A DNA stretch of 64,000 nt from Escherichia coli (lineage in GTDB: Bacteria > Pseudomonadota > Gammaproteobacteria > Enterobacterales > Enterobacteriaceae), in NCBI RefSeq assembly GCF_003018255.1, contig NZ_CP027440.1. One strand, given 5' to 3'. Positions within the stretch are counted from its first letter, which is position 1. Each line of letters opens with the position of its first letter. Positions 33,412 to 63,834 of the stretch are shown in pieces. The translations under genes and the position numbers were made by a program. The notes beneath the pieces are model-generated. The model did no database searches, was not told the DNA's origin, and saw only the letters and a program-made list of their open reading frames with translations.

Positions 33412-35670
33412 ATGCGCGTAGATGCCATTGCTAAGGTCACCGGGCGGGCACGATATACTGACGATTATGTTATGGCGGGCATGTGTTACGCGAAATATGT
33501 ACGTAGCCCTATCGCACATGGTTATGCCATAAGTATTAATGATGAACAAGCCAGAAGTTTACCGGGCGTACTGGCGATTTTTACCTGGGAAGATGTGCCT
33601 GATATCCCATTCGCTACAGCTGGGCATGCCTGGACACTTGACGAAAACAAGCGCGATACCGCCGATCGCGCACTGCTAACTCGCCATGTTCGTCATCATG
33701 GTGACGCCGTTGCCATCGTCGTGGCCCGTGATGAACTCACGGCAGAAAAAGCGGCGCAATTGGTCAGCATTGAGTGGCAAGAATTACCCGTTATCACCAC
33801 GCCAGAAGCGGCGCTGGCAGATGACGCTGCACCAATCCATAACGGCGGCAATTTACTAAAACAAAGCTCGATGTCGACGGGTAATGTCCAACAAACAATC
33901 GATGCCGCCGATTACCAGGTGCAGGGGCACTATCAGACTCCCGTTATTCAACATTGTCATATGGAAAGCGTGACATCGCTGGCATGGATGGAGGATGACT
34001 CGCGAATTACCATCGTTTCCAGCACCCAGATCCCGCACATTGTTCGCCGTGTGGTTGGTCAGGCGCTGAATATTCCCTGGTCATGCGTACGAGTCATCAA
34101 ACCGTTTGTCGGTGGCGGTTTTGGTAATAAACAGGATGTACTGGAAGAGCCAATGGCGGCATTCCTGACCAGCAAGCTTGGCGGCATTCCGGTGAAAGTT
34201 TCCCTTAGCCGTGAAGAGTGTTTCCTCGCAACCCGTACCCGCCACGCTTTTACTATTGACGGGCAAATGGGCGTGAACCGCGACGGAACATTGAAAGGTT
34301 ATAGTCTGGATGTTCTGTCTAACACCGGCGCTTATGCATCTCACGGGCACTCCATCGCTTCTGCGGGCGGAAATAAAGTCGCTTACCTTTATCCTCGTTG
34401 TGCCTACGCTTACAGTTCAAAGACCTGCTATACCAACCTCCCCTCGGCTGGTGCGATGCGTGGTTATGGCGCGCCACAAGTCGTATTTGCCGTTGAGTCT
34501 ATGCTTGATGACGCCGCGACAGCGTTAGGTATTGATCCTGTTGAAATTCGTTTACGCAACGCCGCCCGCGAAGGAGATGCTAATCCGCTCACGGGCAAAC
34601 GTATTTACAGCGCAGGGTTGCCGGAGTGTCTTGAAAAAGGCCGGAAAATCTTTGAATGGGAAAAACGCCGTGCAGAGTGCCAGAACCAGCAAGGCAATTT
34701 ACGCCGCGGCGTTGGCGTCGCCTGTTTTAGCTACACCTCTAACACCTGGCCTGTCGGCGTAGAAATAGCAGGCGCGCGCCTGTTGATGAATCAGGATGGA
34801 ACCATCAACGTGCAAAGCGGCGCGACAGAAATCGGTCAGGGGGCCGACACCGTCTTCTCGCAAATGGTAGCAGAAACCGTGGGGGTTCCGGTCAGCGACG
34901 TTCGCGTTATTTCAACCCAAGATACCGACGTTACGCCGTTCGATCCCGGTGCATTTGCCTCACGCCAGAGCTATGTTGCCGCGCCTGCGCTGCGCAGTGC
35001 GGCACTGTTATTAAAGGAGAAAATCATCGCTCATGCCGCTGTCATGCTACATCAGTCAGCGATGAATCTTACCCTGATAAAAGGCCATATCGTGCTGGTT
35101 GAACGACCGGAAGAGCCATTAATGTCGTTAAAAGATTTGGCGATGGACGCCTTCTACCACCCTGAACGCGGCGGGCAGCTCTCTGCCGAAAGCTCCATCA
35201 AAACCACCACTAACCCACCAGCGTTTGGCTGTACCTTTGTTGATCTGACGGTCGATATTGCGCTGTGTAAAGTCACCATCAACCGCATCCTCAACGTTCA
35301 TGATTCGGGCCATATTCTTAATCCGCTACTGGCAGAAGGTCAGGTACACGGCGGAATGGGAATGGGCATTGGCTGGGCGCTATTTGAAGAGATGATCATT
35401 GATGCGAAAAGCGGCGTGGTCCGTAACCCCAATCTGCTGGATTACAAAATGCCGACCATGCCGGATCTGCCACAACTGGAAAGCGCGTTCGTCGAAATCA
35501 ATGAGCCGCAATCCGCATACGGACATAAGTCACTGGGTGAGCCACCAATAATTCCTGTTGCCGCTGCTATTCGTAACGCGGTGAAGATGGCTACCGGTGT
35601 TGCAATCAATACACTGCCGCTGACGCCAAAACGGTTATATGAAGAGTTCCATCTGGCAGGATTGATTTGA
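33412..35670 (+). CDS. xdhA: Xanthine dehydrogenase, molybdopterin-binding subunit
   Basis: Start MRVDAIAKVTGRARYTDDY gives 752 aa (the 765-aa frame is an extension); aldehyde oxidase / xanthine dehydrogenase Mo-binding family. Confidence 0.92.
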   Translation: MRVDAIAKVTGRARYTDDYVMAGMCYAKYVRSPIAHGYAISINDEQARSLPGVLAIFTWEDVPDIPFATAGHAWTLDENKRDTADRALLTRHVRHHGDAVAIVVARDELTAEKAAQLVSIEWQELPVITTPEAALADDAAPIHNGGNLLKQSSMSTGNVQQTIDAADYQVQGHYQTPVIQHCHMESVTSLAWMEDDSRITIVSSTQIPHIVRRVVGQALNIPWSCVRVIKPFVGGGFGNKQDVLEEPMAAFLTSKLGGIPVKVSLSREECFLATRTRHAFTIDGQMGVNRDGTLKGYSLDVLSNTGAYASHGHSIASAGGNKVAYLYPRCAYAYSSKTCYTNLPSAGAMRGYGAPQVVFAVESMLDDAATALGIDPVEIRLRNAAREGDANPLTGKRIYSAGLPECLEKGRKIFEWEKRRAECQNQQGNLRRGVGVACFSYTSNTWPVGVEIAGARLLMNQDGTINVQSGATEIGQGADTVFSQMVAETVGVPVSDVRVISTQDTDVTPFDPGAFASRQSYVAAPALRSAALLLKEKIIAHAAVMLHQSAMNLTLIKGHIVLVERPEEPLMSLKDLAMDAFYHPERGGQLSAESSIKTTTNPPAFGCTFVDLTVDIALCKVTINRILNVHDSGHILNPLLAEGQVHGGMGMGIGWALFEEMIIDAKSGVVRNPNLLDYKMPTMPDLPQLESAFVEINEPQSAYGHKSLGEPPIIPVAAAIRNAVKMATGVAINTLPLTPKRLYEEFHLAGLI

Positions 35671-35680
35671 GGATAACATC

Positions 35681-61413: not shown

Positions 61414-61903
61414 ACAGAGGATTCTCACCGCTGGCAACAATACGCTGCTGGCGGACTCGCCTGAGTTCTCTTTCAGTAAGCAACTGCAGCGCCTGTGTTG
61501 GGCAAGATTCAACGCAGGCTGGCCCCTCTTCCCGCTGTTCACAGAGATCGCATTTCACGATTTGTTGCCGGGTATCCCCCGGCAACGACTGAATGGTGAT
61601 CATTCCAAACGGGCACGCACTGACGCAACTCTGACAGCCAATACAACGGGCAGAATTGGTCTGCACCACCTGCTCGCCCATCGTCAGCGCCCCCACGGGG
61701 CAAGCGCTAACACAAGGGGCGTTTTCACACTGATGGCACATCACCGGCGCACTGATGCTGTCCAGTCGCTGTACCTTCAGCCGGGGTAAAAAGACATCGG
61801 CATTCAACTCCTGTTCTGAAGGGTGAGCGACCACACAGGCTACTTCACAAGTACGGCAGCCAATACAGTCAGCCGGATTAACGATAATTAACGATTTCAT
61901 CAC
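61412..61903 (-). CDS. ygfS: 4Fe-4S ferredoxin-type protein
   Basis: 163 aa with four Cys clusters ([57 protein letters not shown]); overlaps ygfT (ATGA). Confidence 0.9.
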
Positions 61904-63834
61904 GATGCCTTCGTATCAAACAGAGTTAACATATCGCGCGCCGCCTGCCTTCCTGCGGCCATTGCAGTGACAACCAGATCCGCGCCATGAACAGCATCAC
62001 CACCAGCAAAGACTTTTTTCAGATGCGTCTGGGTAGGTAAATACCCGACGTCACCGGTTTGAATCAGGCCCCATTTATCGAGTTTAATTCCGCTGCCCTG
62101 CAACCACGGCATGGCATGCGCCTGGAAACCAAAGGCCATAATGAGAACATCGGCGGGCAATTCAAACTCTGAACCCGCTACCGGACGAGGACGACGGCGA
62201 CCATCCGGCCCCGGCTCACCCATGGCGGTACGAATCAGGCCCACCGCAGTTAAACGCCCATCTTCGTCACAAGCGATATATTGCGGCTGAACATTGAACT
62301 GAAACTTGACACCTTCCTCGCGCGCATTGACCACCTCTTTGCGCGAGCCCGGCATACTGACTTCATCACGACGATACGCGCAGGTCACGCTGGCGGCATT
62401 GAGGCGGATGGAAGTCCGCAAACAATCCATGGTCGTATCGCCACCGCCCAATACCACGACTCGCTTACCTTCCACATCCGTCAGCGGATACTCTTCAGAC
62501 TCCGGCAACCCCATGAGCTGGCGGGTATGGGCAGTCAGGAACGGTAGAGCCTGAATGACACCGGGCGCATCTTCATGCGGCAGATCTGCTCGCATCATCC
62601 CGTAAGTCCCCACGCCGATGAAAACTGCATCATATTCAGAAGTTAAATCGCTAAAGGTAATATCGCGGCCAATTTCACAGTTAAGATGAAAGTCGATTCC
62701 CATTGCGGTGAATATCTCTCGCCGCTGGCTTAATACCGTTTTATCGAGTTTGAAAGGAGGTATGCCAAAAGTCAGCATACCGCCAATTTCTGGATGGCGA
62801 TCAAAGACATCAACCTGAACTCCTGCGCGCGCCAAAATATCAGCACACCCTAACCCTGCAGGCCCTGCGCCAATCACCGCCACTTTTTCGATACGGGGAA
62901 CAACTTTGCTGACATCGGGACGCCAGCCCATCGCCAGCGCGGTATCGGTAATGTAGCGTTCCAGATTCCCGATAGAGACTGCGCCAGAGTGATCTTTCAA
63001 AGTACATGCGCCTTCACAAAGACGGTCCTGTGGACATACCCTGCCGCAGATTTCTGGCAAGGAACTGGTCTGGTGGCAAAGTTCTGCCGCTTCAATAATC
63101 TTTCCTTCCTGCACCAGACGGATGTAATCCGGAATAGCGTTATGCAGCGGGCAATGCCAGTTGCAGTTAGCTTTTTCGGCGCAATAAACACAGCGGTCAC
63201 TCTCATAAGTCGCTTGTTGTGGATCCAGCCCGTAATAGATTTCGCCAAAGTGGGTTTTCCGTTCACTCGCTGAAATTTTATCTGCGCCTTTACGCGAGTT
63301 AACGGGGAGCAACGCTGCACTGCGAGATGGCTGAGCGTCTGATGACGCTTTTCCTGCTGCCGTTTTGCGCTGGCGGGCCACCTTTATCTGCTGCAACCCT
63401 TTATCGTCCATCAGCCGTAACGCCTGTGTTGGGCAGACTTCAATACAGGCTTGCGTGCCGGAACTGCGCTGGTTACAAAGGTCGCATTTCTGCGCAATCG
63501 TATCGACCATCTCAACGACGCCAAAGGGGCAAGCGATTGCGCATCTTTTACAACCAATACATTTTTGCTCGTCCAGTTGTACGCTATCGGGCTGGAAAGT
63601 CAGAGCATTAACCGGACAAGCCGTAACGCAAGGGGCATTGTTGCAGTGATGGCAGGCCACCGGATTCGCAGCCTGGCCTTTCCCTACAACGTGGATACGC
63701 GGTCGAAAGTCACTGTGACTCAGCGGCCAGTTTTCTTGATTATGTGCCATCGCACAGGCAATTTCACAAGCATGACAGCCTATACATTCCGCAGCTTCAG
63801 CAGCGATAAACTTATTCATTTGCATCCCTTTCAT
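61900..63834 (-). CDS. ygfT: Fe-S flavoprotein oxidoreductase (glutamate-synthase-small-subunit-like; AegA paralog)
   Basis: N-terminal 4Fe-4S ferredoxin motifs plus dinucleotide-binding [21 protein letters not shown]; the true start may be a few codons inside the 644-aa frame. Confidence 0.9.

What the first reader, a model, noticed from the sequence alone, without database searches (positions are those of the whole stretch)
33412..63834. About 30 kb purine/urate catabolic supercluster (xdhABC, ygeV, ygeW-yqeA, yqeBC, ygfJ, ygfK-ssnA-ygfM-xdhD, xanQ, guaD, ghxQ, ygfST)
Twenty-two consecutive genes encode two xanthine-dehydrogenase-type molybdoenzymes, three cyclic amidohydrolases, a carbamoyltransferase and carbamate kinase pair, two nucleobase permeases, Mo-cofactor accessory proteins, three Fe-S flavoprotein or ferredoxin electron carriers and a sigma-54 activator. 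This locus has been linked to anaerobic urate/purine degradation and to selenium-dependent molybdenum hydroxylases, but most individual reactions remain unassigned. It is the least understood biology in the window, though not a wholly undescribed system.
Basis: partly seen in the sequence, partly recalled or inferred. Interest (0 to 1): 0.75.

Follow-up and report, generated by a model that had tools for sequence, protein, structure and literature searches.

The report
E. coli anaerobic urate degradation cluster
This 30 kb stretch is the well-known E. coli purine and uric-acid breakdown locus; its reactions were worked out biochemically in 2023-2025, so the finding is real but already explained.

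Summary
Window 33373-63834 carries 21 intact genes (not 22): xdhABC, ygeV, ygeW-ygeX-ygeY-hyuA-yqeA, yqeBC, mocA(ygfJ), ygfK-ssnA-ygfM-xdhD, xanQ-guaD-ghxQ and ygfST. The locus is collinear with E. coli K-12 at about 98% DNA identity, and each protein differs from K-12 by 0-12 residues. It is present in 5331 of 5426 complete E. coli genomes.

The claim that most reactions remain unassigned is out of date. Work in E. coli itself (Liu/Dodd 2022-2025; Li et al. 2025) assigns these steps:
- XdhD-YgfM reduces urate to 2,8-dioxopurine.
- YgfK plus SsnA dearomatise and open the ring.
- HyuA opens the hydantoin.
- YgeW with YqeA removes a ureido group and makes ATP.
- YgeY and then YgeX give pyruvate.

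Deletion phenotypes, urate induction, XdhD-YgfM co-purification, four sigma-54 ChIP sites and a "YgeV iModulon" are all published.

The one new piece is a candidate YgeV binding site, TATCA-N3-TGA(G/T). An exact 12-mer lies upstream of three of the four sigma-54 promoters. In the 64 kb window, 5 of 6 sites fall in the sigma-54 promoter spacers. The pattern recurs in three independent homologous clusters.

Still open are the roles of YgfS/YgfT and YqeB/YqeC, selenium dependence in E. coli, and the YgeV effector.

Verdict: already known; low interest.

The parts
33170..33203 (.). Two candidate YgeV upstream activator sites (33170-33181 TATCACATTGAT; 33192-33203 CTCATATTGATA), about 100-130 bp upstream of the xdhA sigma-54 promoter
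33301..33317 (+). sigma-54 promoter of xdhABC (CTGGCGTAAATCTTGCC), identical to K-12 ChIP-seq site OS29
   Evidence: PMC4591121
33373..37035 (+). xdhA (33373 or 33412-35670), xdhB (35681-36559), xdhC (36556-37035): xanthine dehydrogenase Mo, FAD and 2Fe-2S subunits; oxidise hypoxanthine/xanthine to urate
   Evidence: xdhA deletion phenotype
37075..38853 (-). ygeV (isrR): sigma-54 enhancer-binding protein with an N-terminal sensor region (weak GAF, PAS at 162-206), AAA+ core (Walker A at 300, GAFTGA at 347) and a C-terminal Fis-type HTH
38912..39020 (.). Two candidate YgeV sites in the ygeV-ygeW spacer (38912-38923; 39009-39020, the exact 12-mer on the minus strand)
39164..39179 (.). CRP-like site TGTGATCAACCCCACA, just upstream of the ygeW promoter
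   Evidence: sequence; Li et al. mention a Crp site in this spacer
39222..39238 (+). sigma-54 promoter of the ygeW operon (CTGGCACACTTATTGTT), identical to K-12 ChIP site OS30; its unusual TTGTT -12 element is conserved in three other organisms
39329..45460 (+). ygeW (39329-40519, carbamoyltransferase), ygeX/dpaL (40577-41773, diaminopropionate ammonia-lyase), ygeY (41831-43042, M20 hydrolase), hyuA (43095-44480, hydantoinase), yqeA/arcC (44528-45460, carbamate kinase): lower half of the pathway
   Evidence: functions
45501..47944 (-). yqeB (45501-47126) and yqeC (47174-47944): marker genes for selenium-dependent molybdenum cofactor maturation
   Evidence: role inferred
48048..48626 (+). mocA (ygfJ): molybdenum cofactor cytidylyltransferase
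48678..48690 (.). Palindromic candidate YgeV site TATCATAATGATA, about 180 bp upstream of the ygfK promoter
48859..48875 (+). sigma-54 promoter of ygfK-ssnA-ygfM-xdhD (GTGGTGCGATTGTTGCT), identical to K-12 ChIP site OS31
48948..57074 (+). ygfK (48948-52046, Fe-S flavoprotein 2,8-dioxopurine reductase), ssnA (52049-53377, ring-opening amidohydrolase), ygfM (53428-54207, FAD subunit), xdhD (54204-57074, Mo/Fe-S urate reductase; E606 present): upper half of the pathway
   Evidence: functions
57239..61376 (+). xanQ (57239-58639, xanthine permease), guaD (58654-59973, guanine deaminase), ghxQ (60009-61376, guanine/hypoxanthine permease): the purine feeding module
61412..63819 (-). ygfS (61412-61900, HydN-like 4Fe-4S protein) and ygfT (61900-63819, Fe-S/GltD-like flavoprotein, 'formate-dependent uric acid utilization protein'): presumed electron-input module
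   Evidence: urate induction and genetics cited; conserved linkage
63866..63882 (-). Weak sigma-54 element of ygfTS (CATGCCCATTTATTGCA; 2 differences from K-12 ChIP site OS32)

Best explanation
This is the chromosomal purine/urate catabolic locus of E. coli, in a lineage about 2% diverged from K-12. It encodes the reductive uric-acid (2,8-dioxopurine, 'yanthine') pathway together with its feeding, cofactor, electron-supply and regulatory modules.

Shown in the literature for the near-identical K-12 and Nissle proteins:
- XanQ and GhxQ import purines, GuaD deaminates guanine, and XdhABC oxidises hypoxanthine/xanthine to urate.
- XdhD-YgfM reduces urate to 2,8-dioxopurine using NADH.
- YgfK (Fe-S flavoprotein) reduces the pyrimidine ring, and SsnA opens it to ureidomethyl-hydantoin.
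- HyuA opens the hydantoin to 2,3-diureidopropionate.
- YgeW phosphorolyses one ureido group to carbamoyl phosphate, which YqeA converts to ATP.
- YgeY removes the other ureido group.
- YgeX converts 2,3-diaminopropionate to pyruvate and ammonia.

Inferred, not shown:
- MocA, YqeB and YqeC mature the molybdenum (and possibly selenium) cofactor.
- YgfS/YgfT deliver reducing power from formate.
- YgeV binds TATCA-N3-TGA(G/T) sites 100-215 bp upstream and activates the sigma-54 promoters of xdhABC, ygeW-yqeA, ygfK-xdhD and ygfTS (and probably uacT), with CRP imposing glucose repression.
For: Identity of the locus:
- About 98% DNA identity and full collinearity with K-12.
- Present in 5331 of 5426 complete E. 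coli genomes.
- All 21 proteins are full length with 0-12 substitutions and hit their curated families.

Pathway:
- In vitro reconstitution and mutant metabolite data in E. coli (PMC12507026).
- 13C-urate tracing in E. coli deletion mutants and urate induction of ygfK and ygfT.
- YgeW plus YqeA produce ATP.
- An independent summary agrees.

Regulation:
- Four sigma-54 ChIP-seq sites in K-12 are all found here.
- A YgeV iModulon has been described.
- YgeV has GAFTGA and Walker motifs and PAS, AAA+ and HTH domains.

Candidate operator:
- A 12-mer is shared by 3 of the 4 promoter regions; 0 of 3000 simulated sets reached that length.
- 5 of the 6 pattern sites in 64 kb lie in the sigma-54 spacers.
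- The pattern is enriched in the regulatory spacers of three independent homologous clusters whose regulators share the HTH segment GIGIATLYRKIKKY.

Ancient linkage of regulator and cluster.
Against: - Nothing was measured on this strain; function is transferred from K-12 and Nissle by near-identity.
- The two primary papers disagree on which ureido group YgeW removes.
- Selenium dependence is shown for Clostridium sporogenes and C. difficile, not for E. coli XdhD.
- The roles of YgfS/YgfT, YqeB and YqeC are inferred.
- xanQ-guaD-ghxQ, yqeBC and mocA are not in the published YgeV iModulon, so the 30 kb is not one regulon.
- The YgeV site is purely computational. Its N3 relaxation was chosen after seeing the homologous loci. 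One site lies inside ygeX. The reverse complement partly resembles the IHF core WATCAA.
- YgeV has also been described as an indole-responsive virulence regulator, and its iModulon responded to ethanol in baeR/cpxR mutants, so its effector is unsettled.
Confidence: 0.92

Rival explanations
1. The 30 kb is a chance juxtaposition of unrelated operons rather than one catabolic system. On this view the ygfK-ssnA-ygfM-xdhD block is a selenate reductase, as older annotation suggests, and hyuA is a phenylhydantoinase acting on other substrates.
For: RefSeq still names YgfK 'putative selenate reductase subunit' and HyuA 'D-phenylhydantoinase'. The NCBIfam model names carry 'Se_sel_red'. Several blocks (xanQ-guaD-ghxQ, yqeBC, mocA) are outside the YgeV iModulon.
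Against: Enzyme reconstitution and mutant metabolite data assign these proteins to urate breakdown. The same genes co-occur with a YgeV homologue in distant bacteria, in different orders. Four sigma-54 promoters and a shared upstream motif tie the blocks together.
Confidence: 0.03
2. The shared TATCA-N3-TGA(G/T) element is not the YgeV operator but the site of a general DNA-bending or global factor. Candidates are IHF, which commonly sits upstream of sigma-54 promoters, or Fur at the ygfK palindrome.
For: The reverse-complement motif TATCAATATGAG contains the IHF core WATCAA (direct reading). The ygfK palindrome contains ATAATGATAA, ten consecutive bases of the Fur-box consensus (own knowledge of the consensus; sequence). 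The spacers are AT-rich.
Against: - The positions that are free in an IHF site are identical in three copies, and the IHF TTR element is missing.
- The sites lie 100-215 bp upstream, distal to where IHF usually acts.
- The pattern is absent from the other ~62 kb of the window.
- It recurs beside homologous regulators with the same recognition helix.
Confidence: 0.25
3. The main role of YgeV is indole-responsive control of virulence genes (as IsrR), and control of the purine genes is secondary or indirect.
For: ygeV is among the genes most induced by indole in EHEC, and its mutant is attenuated in Citrobacter rodentium. The YgeV iModulon was most active with ethanol in baeR/cpxR mutants rather than with purines.
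Against: - ygeV is divergently transcribed from the ygeW operon here and in distant bacteria that lack the LEE island.
- ygfT expression falls in a ygeV mutant (cited).
- Sigma-54 promoters precede four cluster operons.
- The conditions in those datasets did not include anaerobic urate.
Confidence: 0.1

Closest known systems
E. coli K-12 MG1655 locus b2866-b2887 (xdhA to ygfT)
   Same: Same 21 genes in the same order and orientation, about 98% DNA identity and 0-12 amino-acid changes per protein. Three sigma-54 promoter elements are identical and the fourth (ygfT) differs by 2 bases.
   Different: This lineage lacks the ~11.7 kb ETT2 remnant between yqeG and glyU, just upstream of the cluster, and a ~150 bp element between yqeA and yqeB.
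2,8-dioxopurine / reductive urate pathway clusters of Clostridium sporogenes and Clostridioides difficile
   Same: Same chemistry and homologous SsnA, HyuA, YgeY, YgeX, YqeB and YqeC, plus a xanthine-dehydrogenase-type urate reductase.
   Different: - The E. coli XdhD has a separate FAD subunit (YgfM) and uses NADH. The clostridial enzyme lacks that subunit, and its natural electron donor is unknown.
- C. difficile replaces YgfK with a PydA-like UacX, and YgeW/YqeA with the hydrolase UacY.
- Selenium dependence is shown only in the clostridia.
Reductive pyrimidine degradation (PydA dihydropyrimidine dehydrogenase, PydB dihydropyrimidinase, PydC)
   Same: The logic is the same: reduce the ring, open it hydrolytically, then remove the ureido group. 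The GltD/DPD-like Fe-S and FAD part of YgfK matches DPD and NfnA in the PDB. HyuA scores as a dihydropyrimidinase.
   Different: The substrate is a purine that must first be dehydroxylated at C6 by a molybdenum enzyme. The N-terminal ~440 residues of YgfK match no Pfam family or PDB sequence.
Arginine deiminase pathway (ornithine carbamoyltransferase plus carbamate kinase)
   Same: YgeW plus YqeA conserve energy by phosphorolysis of a ureido group to carbamoyl phosphate, followed by ATP formation.
   Different: YgeW is a distinct 'knotted' carbamoyltransferase family, and its substrate is 2,3-diureidopropionate rather than citrulline.
DioR sigma-54 regulon predicted in Clostridiales (Nie et al. 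2019, PMC6615313)
   Same: A sigma-54 enhancer-binding protein controls dpaL, ygeW-ygfK-ssnA-ygeY and yqeC-ygfJ-yqeB-xdhC. Full-length YgeV homologues lie beside such genes in Firmicutes and Fusobacteria.
   Different: Those regulators are only 33-38% identical to YgeV. Their function was listed as unknown in 2019, and their binding motif was not compared here.

Membership tests
Reductive uric-acid (2,8-dioxopurine) degradation gene cluster | Xanthine-dehydrogenase-type molybdenum enzyme of the XdhD/DOPDH kind, with its electron-transfer partner | tested here: met
   XdhD scores 2117 bits on TIGR03313 (cut-off 1102) and YgfM 486 bits on TIGR03312. There are 6 and 4 substitutions vs the characterised K-12 proteins, and E606 is present.
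Reductive uric-acid (2,8-dioxopurine) degradation gene cluster | Ring reductase (YgfK or UacX) adjacent to the SsnA amidohydrolase | tested here: met
   YgfK scores 1780 bits on TIGR03315 and SsnA 737 bits on TIGR03314. The genes are adjacent, separated by 2 bp.
Reductive uric-acid (2,8-dioxopurine) degradation gene cluster | Lower pathway genes HyuA, YgeW (or UacY), YgeY and YgeX, optionally with carbamate kinase | tested here: met
   All five are above the curated cut-offs. YgeW and YgeY are identical to the K-12 proteins.
Reductive uric-acid (2,8-dioxopurine) degradation gene cluster | Actual conversion of urate to 2,8-dioxopurine and on to pyruvate | not testable with these tools
   Shown for the K-12 and Nissle enzymes in PMC12507026, and transferred here by near-identity.
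Selenium-dependent molybdenum hydroxylase trait | Marker genes yqeB and yqeC next to a molybdenum hydroxylase | tested here: met
   YqeB matches TIGR03309 and YqeC matches TIGR03172.
Selenium-dependent molybdenum hydroxylase trait | Selenophosphate synthase SelD in the genome, and loss of enzyme activity without selenium | not testable with these tools
   selD lies outside the window. Dependence is shown only for C. sporogenes and C. difficile.
Sigma-54 / enhancer-binding-protein regulon | Activator with an AAA+ sigma-54 interaction domain containing GAFTGA, plus a DNA-binding HTH | tested here: met
   Sigma54_activat E=2.5e-70 and HTH_8 E=5.7e-13. GAFTGA is at residue 347 and Walker A at residue 300.
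Sigma-54 / enhancer-binding-protein regulon | -24 GG / -12 GC promoter elements upstream of the target operons | tested here: met
   Four elements match the K-12 sigma-54 ChIP-seq sites: three exactly, and ygfT with 2 changes.
Sigma-54 / enhancer-binding-protein regulon | Upstream activator sequences bound by the activator | tested here: inconclusive
   There is a statistically supported shared motif but no binding data.
Classical xanthine dehydrogenase XdhABC | Separate Mo, FAD and 2Fe-2S subunits matching the E. coli equivalogs | tested here: met
   NF007426 1484 bits, NF007427 532 bits and NF007387 340 bits.

The most novel reading that the evidence does not exclude
YgeV recognises a short palindromic element, TATCA-N3-TGA(G/T) (E. 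coli core CTCATATTGATA), placed 100-215 bp upstream of the sigma-54 promoters of xdhABC, ygeW-yqeA, ygfK-xdhD and the divergent ygfTS/uacT pair. One sensor would then switch on urate formation, urate uptake, both halves of the reductive pathway and its electron supply together. No paper in the searchable library describes this operator. YgfS/YgfT, whose linkage to the cluster is conserved in compact gammaproteobacterial-type versions, would be the formate-linked electron-input module.
Probability: 0.5. Interest if true: 0.3.

Novelty: already known. Interest (0 to 1): 0.17.

Why it matters
The locus matters biologically. It lets gut bacteria consume host-secreted urate anaerobically, which is relevant to hyperuricaemia and gout and to engineered probiotics. 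That significance has already been recognised and the pathway solved, so finding it again in another E. coli genome adds nothing new.

The useful residue is a testable operator for the orphan activator YgeV. It could help explain, and help engineer around, the tight and poorly understood induction of the pathway. There is also a clear list of what is still unassigned:
- the roles of YgfS/YgfT;
- the roles of YqeB/YqeC and selenium dependence in E. coli;
- the regiochemistry of the YgeW step;
- the YgeV effector.

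Tried and rejected
1. A genome-contig scan with YgeV to collect orthologous spacers was saturated by the generic AAA+ core.
2. The search for homologous proteins with YgeV returned only 99-100% identical E. coli variants and was useless for footprinting.
3. P0121/L087 looked like a 57% orthologue carrying the exact 12-mer. The alignment showed it is E. coli sequence with nearly all G changed to A, a deaminated or bisulfite-like read assembly, so it was discarded as evidence.
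4. Within-species footprinting against K-12 found no changes in the motif sites. About one change was expected, so the test has little power.
5. The strict E. coli 12-mer is not significantly matched in L083 and L086. Only the degenerate pattern is enriched there.
6. The Iwadate and Kato 2019 paper on ygfT, aegA and ygeV could not be read and is cited second-hand.
7. The Rfam scan found no riboswitch or other RNA element inside the cluster.
8. A PDB sequence search with the YgeV sensor region gave only weak PAS matches, so no effector can be inferred. Structure prediction was not pursued because it could not identify the ligand.

Full report
**What is there**

The window is E. coli chromosome. 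The first 20 kb of the finding matches 5331 of 5426 complete E. coli genomes. Only three of them are at 99% identity or above, and the rest are at 95-99%.

The annotation of the best match and of K-12 MG1655 gives this order:
- actS
- xdhA xdhB xdhC
- ygeV (opposite strand)
- ygeW ygeX(dpaL) ygeY hyuA yqeA(arcC)
- yqeB yqeC (opposite strand)
- mocA(ygfJ)
- ygfK ssnA ygfM xdhD
- xanQ guaD ghxQ
- ygfS ygfT (opposite strand)
- uacT, just past the window end

The ORF list contains all of these as uninterrupted frames.

Against curated NCBIfam models, XdhA/B/C, YgeW, diaminopropionate ammonia-lyase, YgeY, hydantoinase, carbamate kinase, YqeB, YqeC, MocA, YgfK, SsnA, YgfM, XdhD, guanine deaminase and YgfT all score above the curated cut-offs. 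XanQ scores as an NCS2 permease and YgfS as a HydN-like ferredoxin. YgeV matches only generic sigma-54 activator models, and GhxQ has no model hit.

A BLAST comparison shows the region is collinear with K-12 at 97.6-98.2% identity. All 21 proteins have the K-12 length, with 0-12 substitutions and no stops.

- There are 21 genes, not 22.

**What it does**

*Li et al. 2025 (PMC12507026)* characterised the E. coli enzymes:
- XdhD co-purifies with a ~30 kDa protein taken to be YgfM. With NADH it reduces urate to 2,8-dioxopurine ("yanthine").
- YgfK plus SsnA, with NAD(P)H, convert this to ureidomethyl-hydantoin, with 5-ureido-dihydrouracil as a minor product.
- HyuA opens both products to 2,3-diureidopropionate.
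- YgeW with phosphate removes one ureido group.
- YgeY and YgeX complete the conversion to pyruvate.

Their mutants behave accordingly:
- xdhA is needed for xanthine consumption.
- An xdhD mutant accumulates urate and makes no yanthine.
- A ygfK mutant makes no ureidomethyl-hydantoin.

Glucose represses the pathway. They replaced a Crp site in the ygeV-ygeW spacer to obtain constitutive expression.

*Liu, Dodd and colleagues:*
- They described the same pathway in Clostridium sporogenes, including its dependence on selenium, molybdenum and SelD.
- E. coli YgeW plus YqeA generate ATP from 2,3-diureidopropionate.

A commentary summarises both studies and lists what remains open:
- which ureido group YgeW removes (the two papers disagree);
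- stereochemistry;
- kinetics;
- the natural electron donor of the clostridial enzyme.

**Regulation**

YgeV has a PAS-containing N-terminal region, a sigma-54 AAA+ domain and a Fis-type HTH, with GAFTGA and Walker motifs.

Bonocora et al. 2015 mapped sigma-54 ChIP-seq sites upstream of xdhA, ygeW, ygfK and ygfT in K-12. I find all four in the window. Three are identical, and the weak ygfT site has two changes.

The PRECISE-1K study defined a YgeV iModulon. [quoted passage not shown] The list does not include xanQ-guaD-ghxQ, yqeBC or mocA. Co-regulation of the main blocks is thus already documented, and the 30 kb is not a single regulon.

Terminator-like hairpins fall after xdhC/ygeV, ygeW, ygeY, yqeA/yqeB, xdhD and ghxQ/ygfS, consistent with the operon boundaries.

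Other reported behaviour of YgeV leaves the effector unsettled. It has been described as indole-induced, as a LEE activator (IsrR), and as active with ethanol in baeR/cpxR mutants.

**One thing that appears to be new: a candidate YgeV operator**

Comparing the regions upstream of the four sigma-54 promoters, I found the exact 12-mer CTCATATTGATA in three of them:
- upstream of xdhA (33192-33203);
- in the ygeV-ygeW spacer (39009-39020, opposite strand);
- in the ygfT-uacT spacer, just outside the window.

A perfect palindrome, TTATCATAATGATAA, lies upstream of ygfK. In 3000 first-order Markov simulations of the four regions, no k-mer of length 12 was shared by three regions.

In the whole 64 kb window the only exact copies are those two. 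The degenerate pattern TATCA-N3-TGA(G/T) has six distinct sites. Five lie in the three sigma-54 spacers, one lies inside ygeX, and none lies in the remaining ~62 kb. The sites sit 109-213 bp upstream of the -24 elements.

For independent evidence I searched representatives with the YgeV sensor region and fetched the contexts of three full-length relatives:
- L083, from NCBI genome GCA_031432975.1; regulator 52.7% identical to YgeV;
- L084/L085, from metagenomes; 49.8% identical;
- L086; 44.2% identical.

All three carry the pathway genes beside the regulator. L083 and L084 have a compact arrangement with a single fused Mo+FAD xanthine-dehydrogenase-type enzyme and a divergent ygfT-ygfS pair.

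The HTH segment GIGIATLYRKIKKY is identical or nearly so. The sigma-54 elements are conserved, including the unusual TTGTT -12 element at ygeW.

The pattern is enriched in the regulatory spacers of these loci:

| Locus | Strand-hits in regulatory spacers | Hits in the flanking ~20 kb | Shuffles reaching the observed count |
|---|---|---|---|
| L083 | 4 | 2 | 0 of 2000 |
| L084 | 1 | 1 | 16 of 2000 |
| L086 | 3 | 1 | 1 of 2000 |

. L084 also has the E. coli 12-mer with one mismatch, about 140 bp upstream of a sigma-54 promoter (6 of 2000 shuffles).

Caveats:
- The N3 relaxation was chosen after seeing these loci.
- The strict 12-mer is not significant in L083 or L086.
- There is no binding evidence.
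- The reverse complement resembles the IHF core, and the ygfK palindrome overlaps a Fur-box-like decamer.

No paper in the searchable library contains the motif.

**An artefact caught**

A fragment with an apparent 57% orthologue (P0121/L087) carried the exact motif. Alignment showed it is E. coli DNA with almost every G changed to A, presumably deaminated reads assembled as a contig. It was excluded.

**Wider context**

- Full-length YgeV homologues of 33-38% identity lie next to ygeX, ygeW, ygeY, ygfK, yqeA, ssnA, hyuA or xdh genes in Sedimentibacter, Clostridium thailandense, Propionigenium and others.
- A 2019 comparative study predicted a sigma-54 activator ("DioR") controlling the same gene set in Clostridiales, with function then unknown. 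The regulator-cluster association is therefore old and widespread.
- No solved structures exist for XdhD, YgfK or SsnA themselves. The nearest are 4-hydroxybenzoyl-CoA reductase, other xanthine-oxidase-family enzymes, NfnA/GltD/dihydropyrimidine dehydrogenase and uncharacterised amidohydrolases.
- The N-terminal ~440 residues of YgfK match no Pfam family.
- No Rfam family matches inside the cluster.

**Verdict**

The feature is real and correctly identified, but it is the reference E. coli locus in another strain. Its pathway, mutant phenotypes and co-regulation are published, so its novelty is "already known" and its interest is low.

What remains open:
- the YgeV effector and operator, for which a concrete candidate is offered here;
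- the roles of YgfS/YgfT and YqeB/YqeC, and selenium dependence in E. coli;
- the regiochemistry of the YgeW step.

Noticed in passing
window 31907-32015 (between yqeG and tRNA-Gly glyU): The ~11.7 kb ETT2 type III secretion remnant of K-12 (yqeH to ygeQ, with IS2) is absent. In this lineage yqeG is followed almost directly by glyU and actS.
   Followed up: partly
window 45461-45500 (yqeA-yqeB spacer): K-12 has about 150 bp more here (probably a repetitive extragenic element). The window keeps only the shared bidirectional terminator hairpin at 45467-45492.
   Followed up: partly
window 38946-38970: A long palindrome, TGATAAAAACATAAGATTTTTATCA, sits in the ygeV-ygeW spacer close to the ygeV start. 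It is conserved in K-12 except for one flanking base. Its function is unknown; it may be the ygeV promoter or an autoregulation site.
   Followed up: no
L001 43757-43773 (ygfT-uacT spacer, about 180 bp beyond the window end): A second sigma-54-like element, CTGGCACTCCACGAGCA, faces uacT, about 70-85 bp upstream of its start. The shared 12-mer lies between the two divergent promoters, so one activator site may serve both ygfTS and uacT.
   Followed up: partly
window 40853-40865 (inside ygeX): A palindromic copy of the candidate motif (TATCATCTTGATA) lies within coding sequence, about 330 bp downstream of the terminator-like hairpin after ygeW. It may be an internal regulatory site or chance.
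   Followed up: no
window 20762-20849 and 20964-21045: The OmrA and OmrB small RNA genes lie in the aas-galR spacer, as in K-12.
   Followed up: yes
L087 (Logan SRR17348396 contig, 1360 bp): This public assembly contig is E. coli ygeV-region DNA with nearly all G replaced by A. Its predicted protein therefore appears in protein databases as a spurious 57% 'homologue' of YgeV.
   Followed up: yes
L083 1-18908 and L084 1-19063: This is a compact variant of the cluster. It has a single ~1070-residue xanthine-dehydrogenase-type protein fusing the Mo and FAD domains, a short XdhC-like maturation protein instead of the long YqeB, no yqeC called in the fetched 20 kb, and ygfT-ygfS divergent from the Mo enzyme operon.
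   Followed up: partly
L004 7207-11740 (Citrobacter werkmanii): A YgeV-like activator (38% identical) sits next to only a ygeX homologue (51%) and an M20 hydrolase. It may be a mini-regulon for diaminopropionate or a ureido-amino acid, without the purine genes.
   Followed up: no
window 33412-53412: Only 3 of 5331 matching complete genomes are at 99% identity or above to this stretch, so the window comes from a sparsely sampled E. coli lineage.
   Followed up: no
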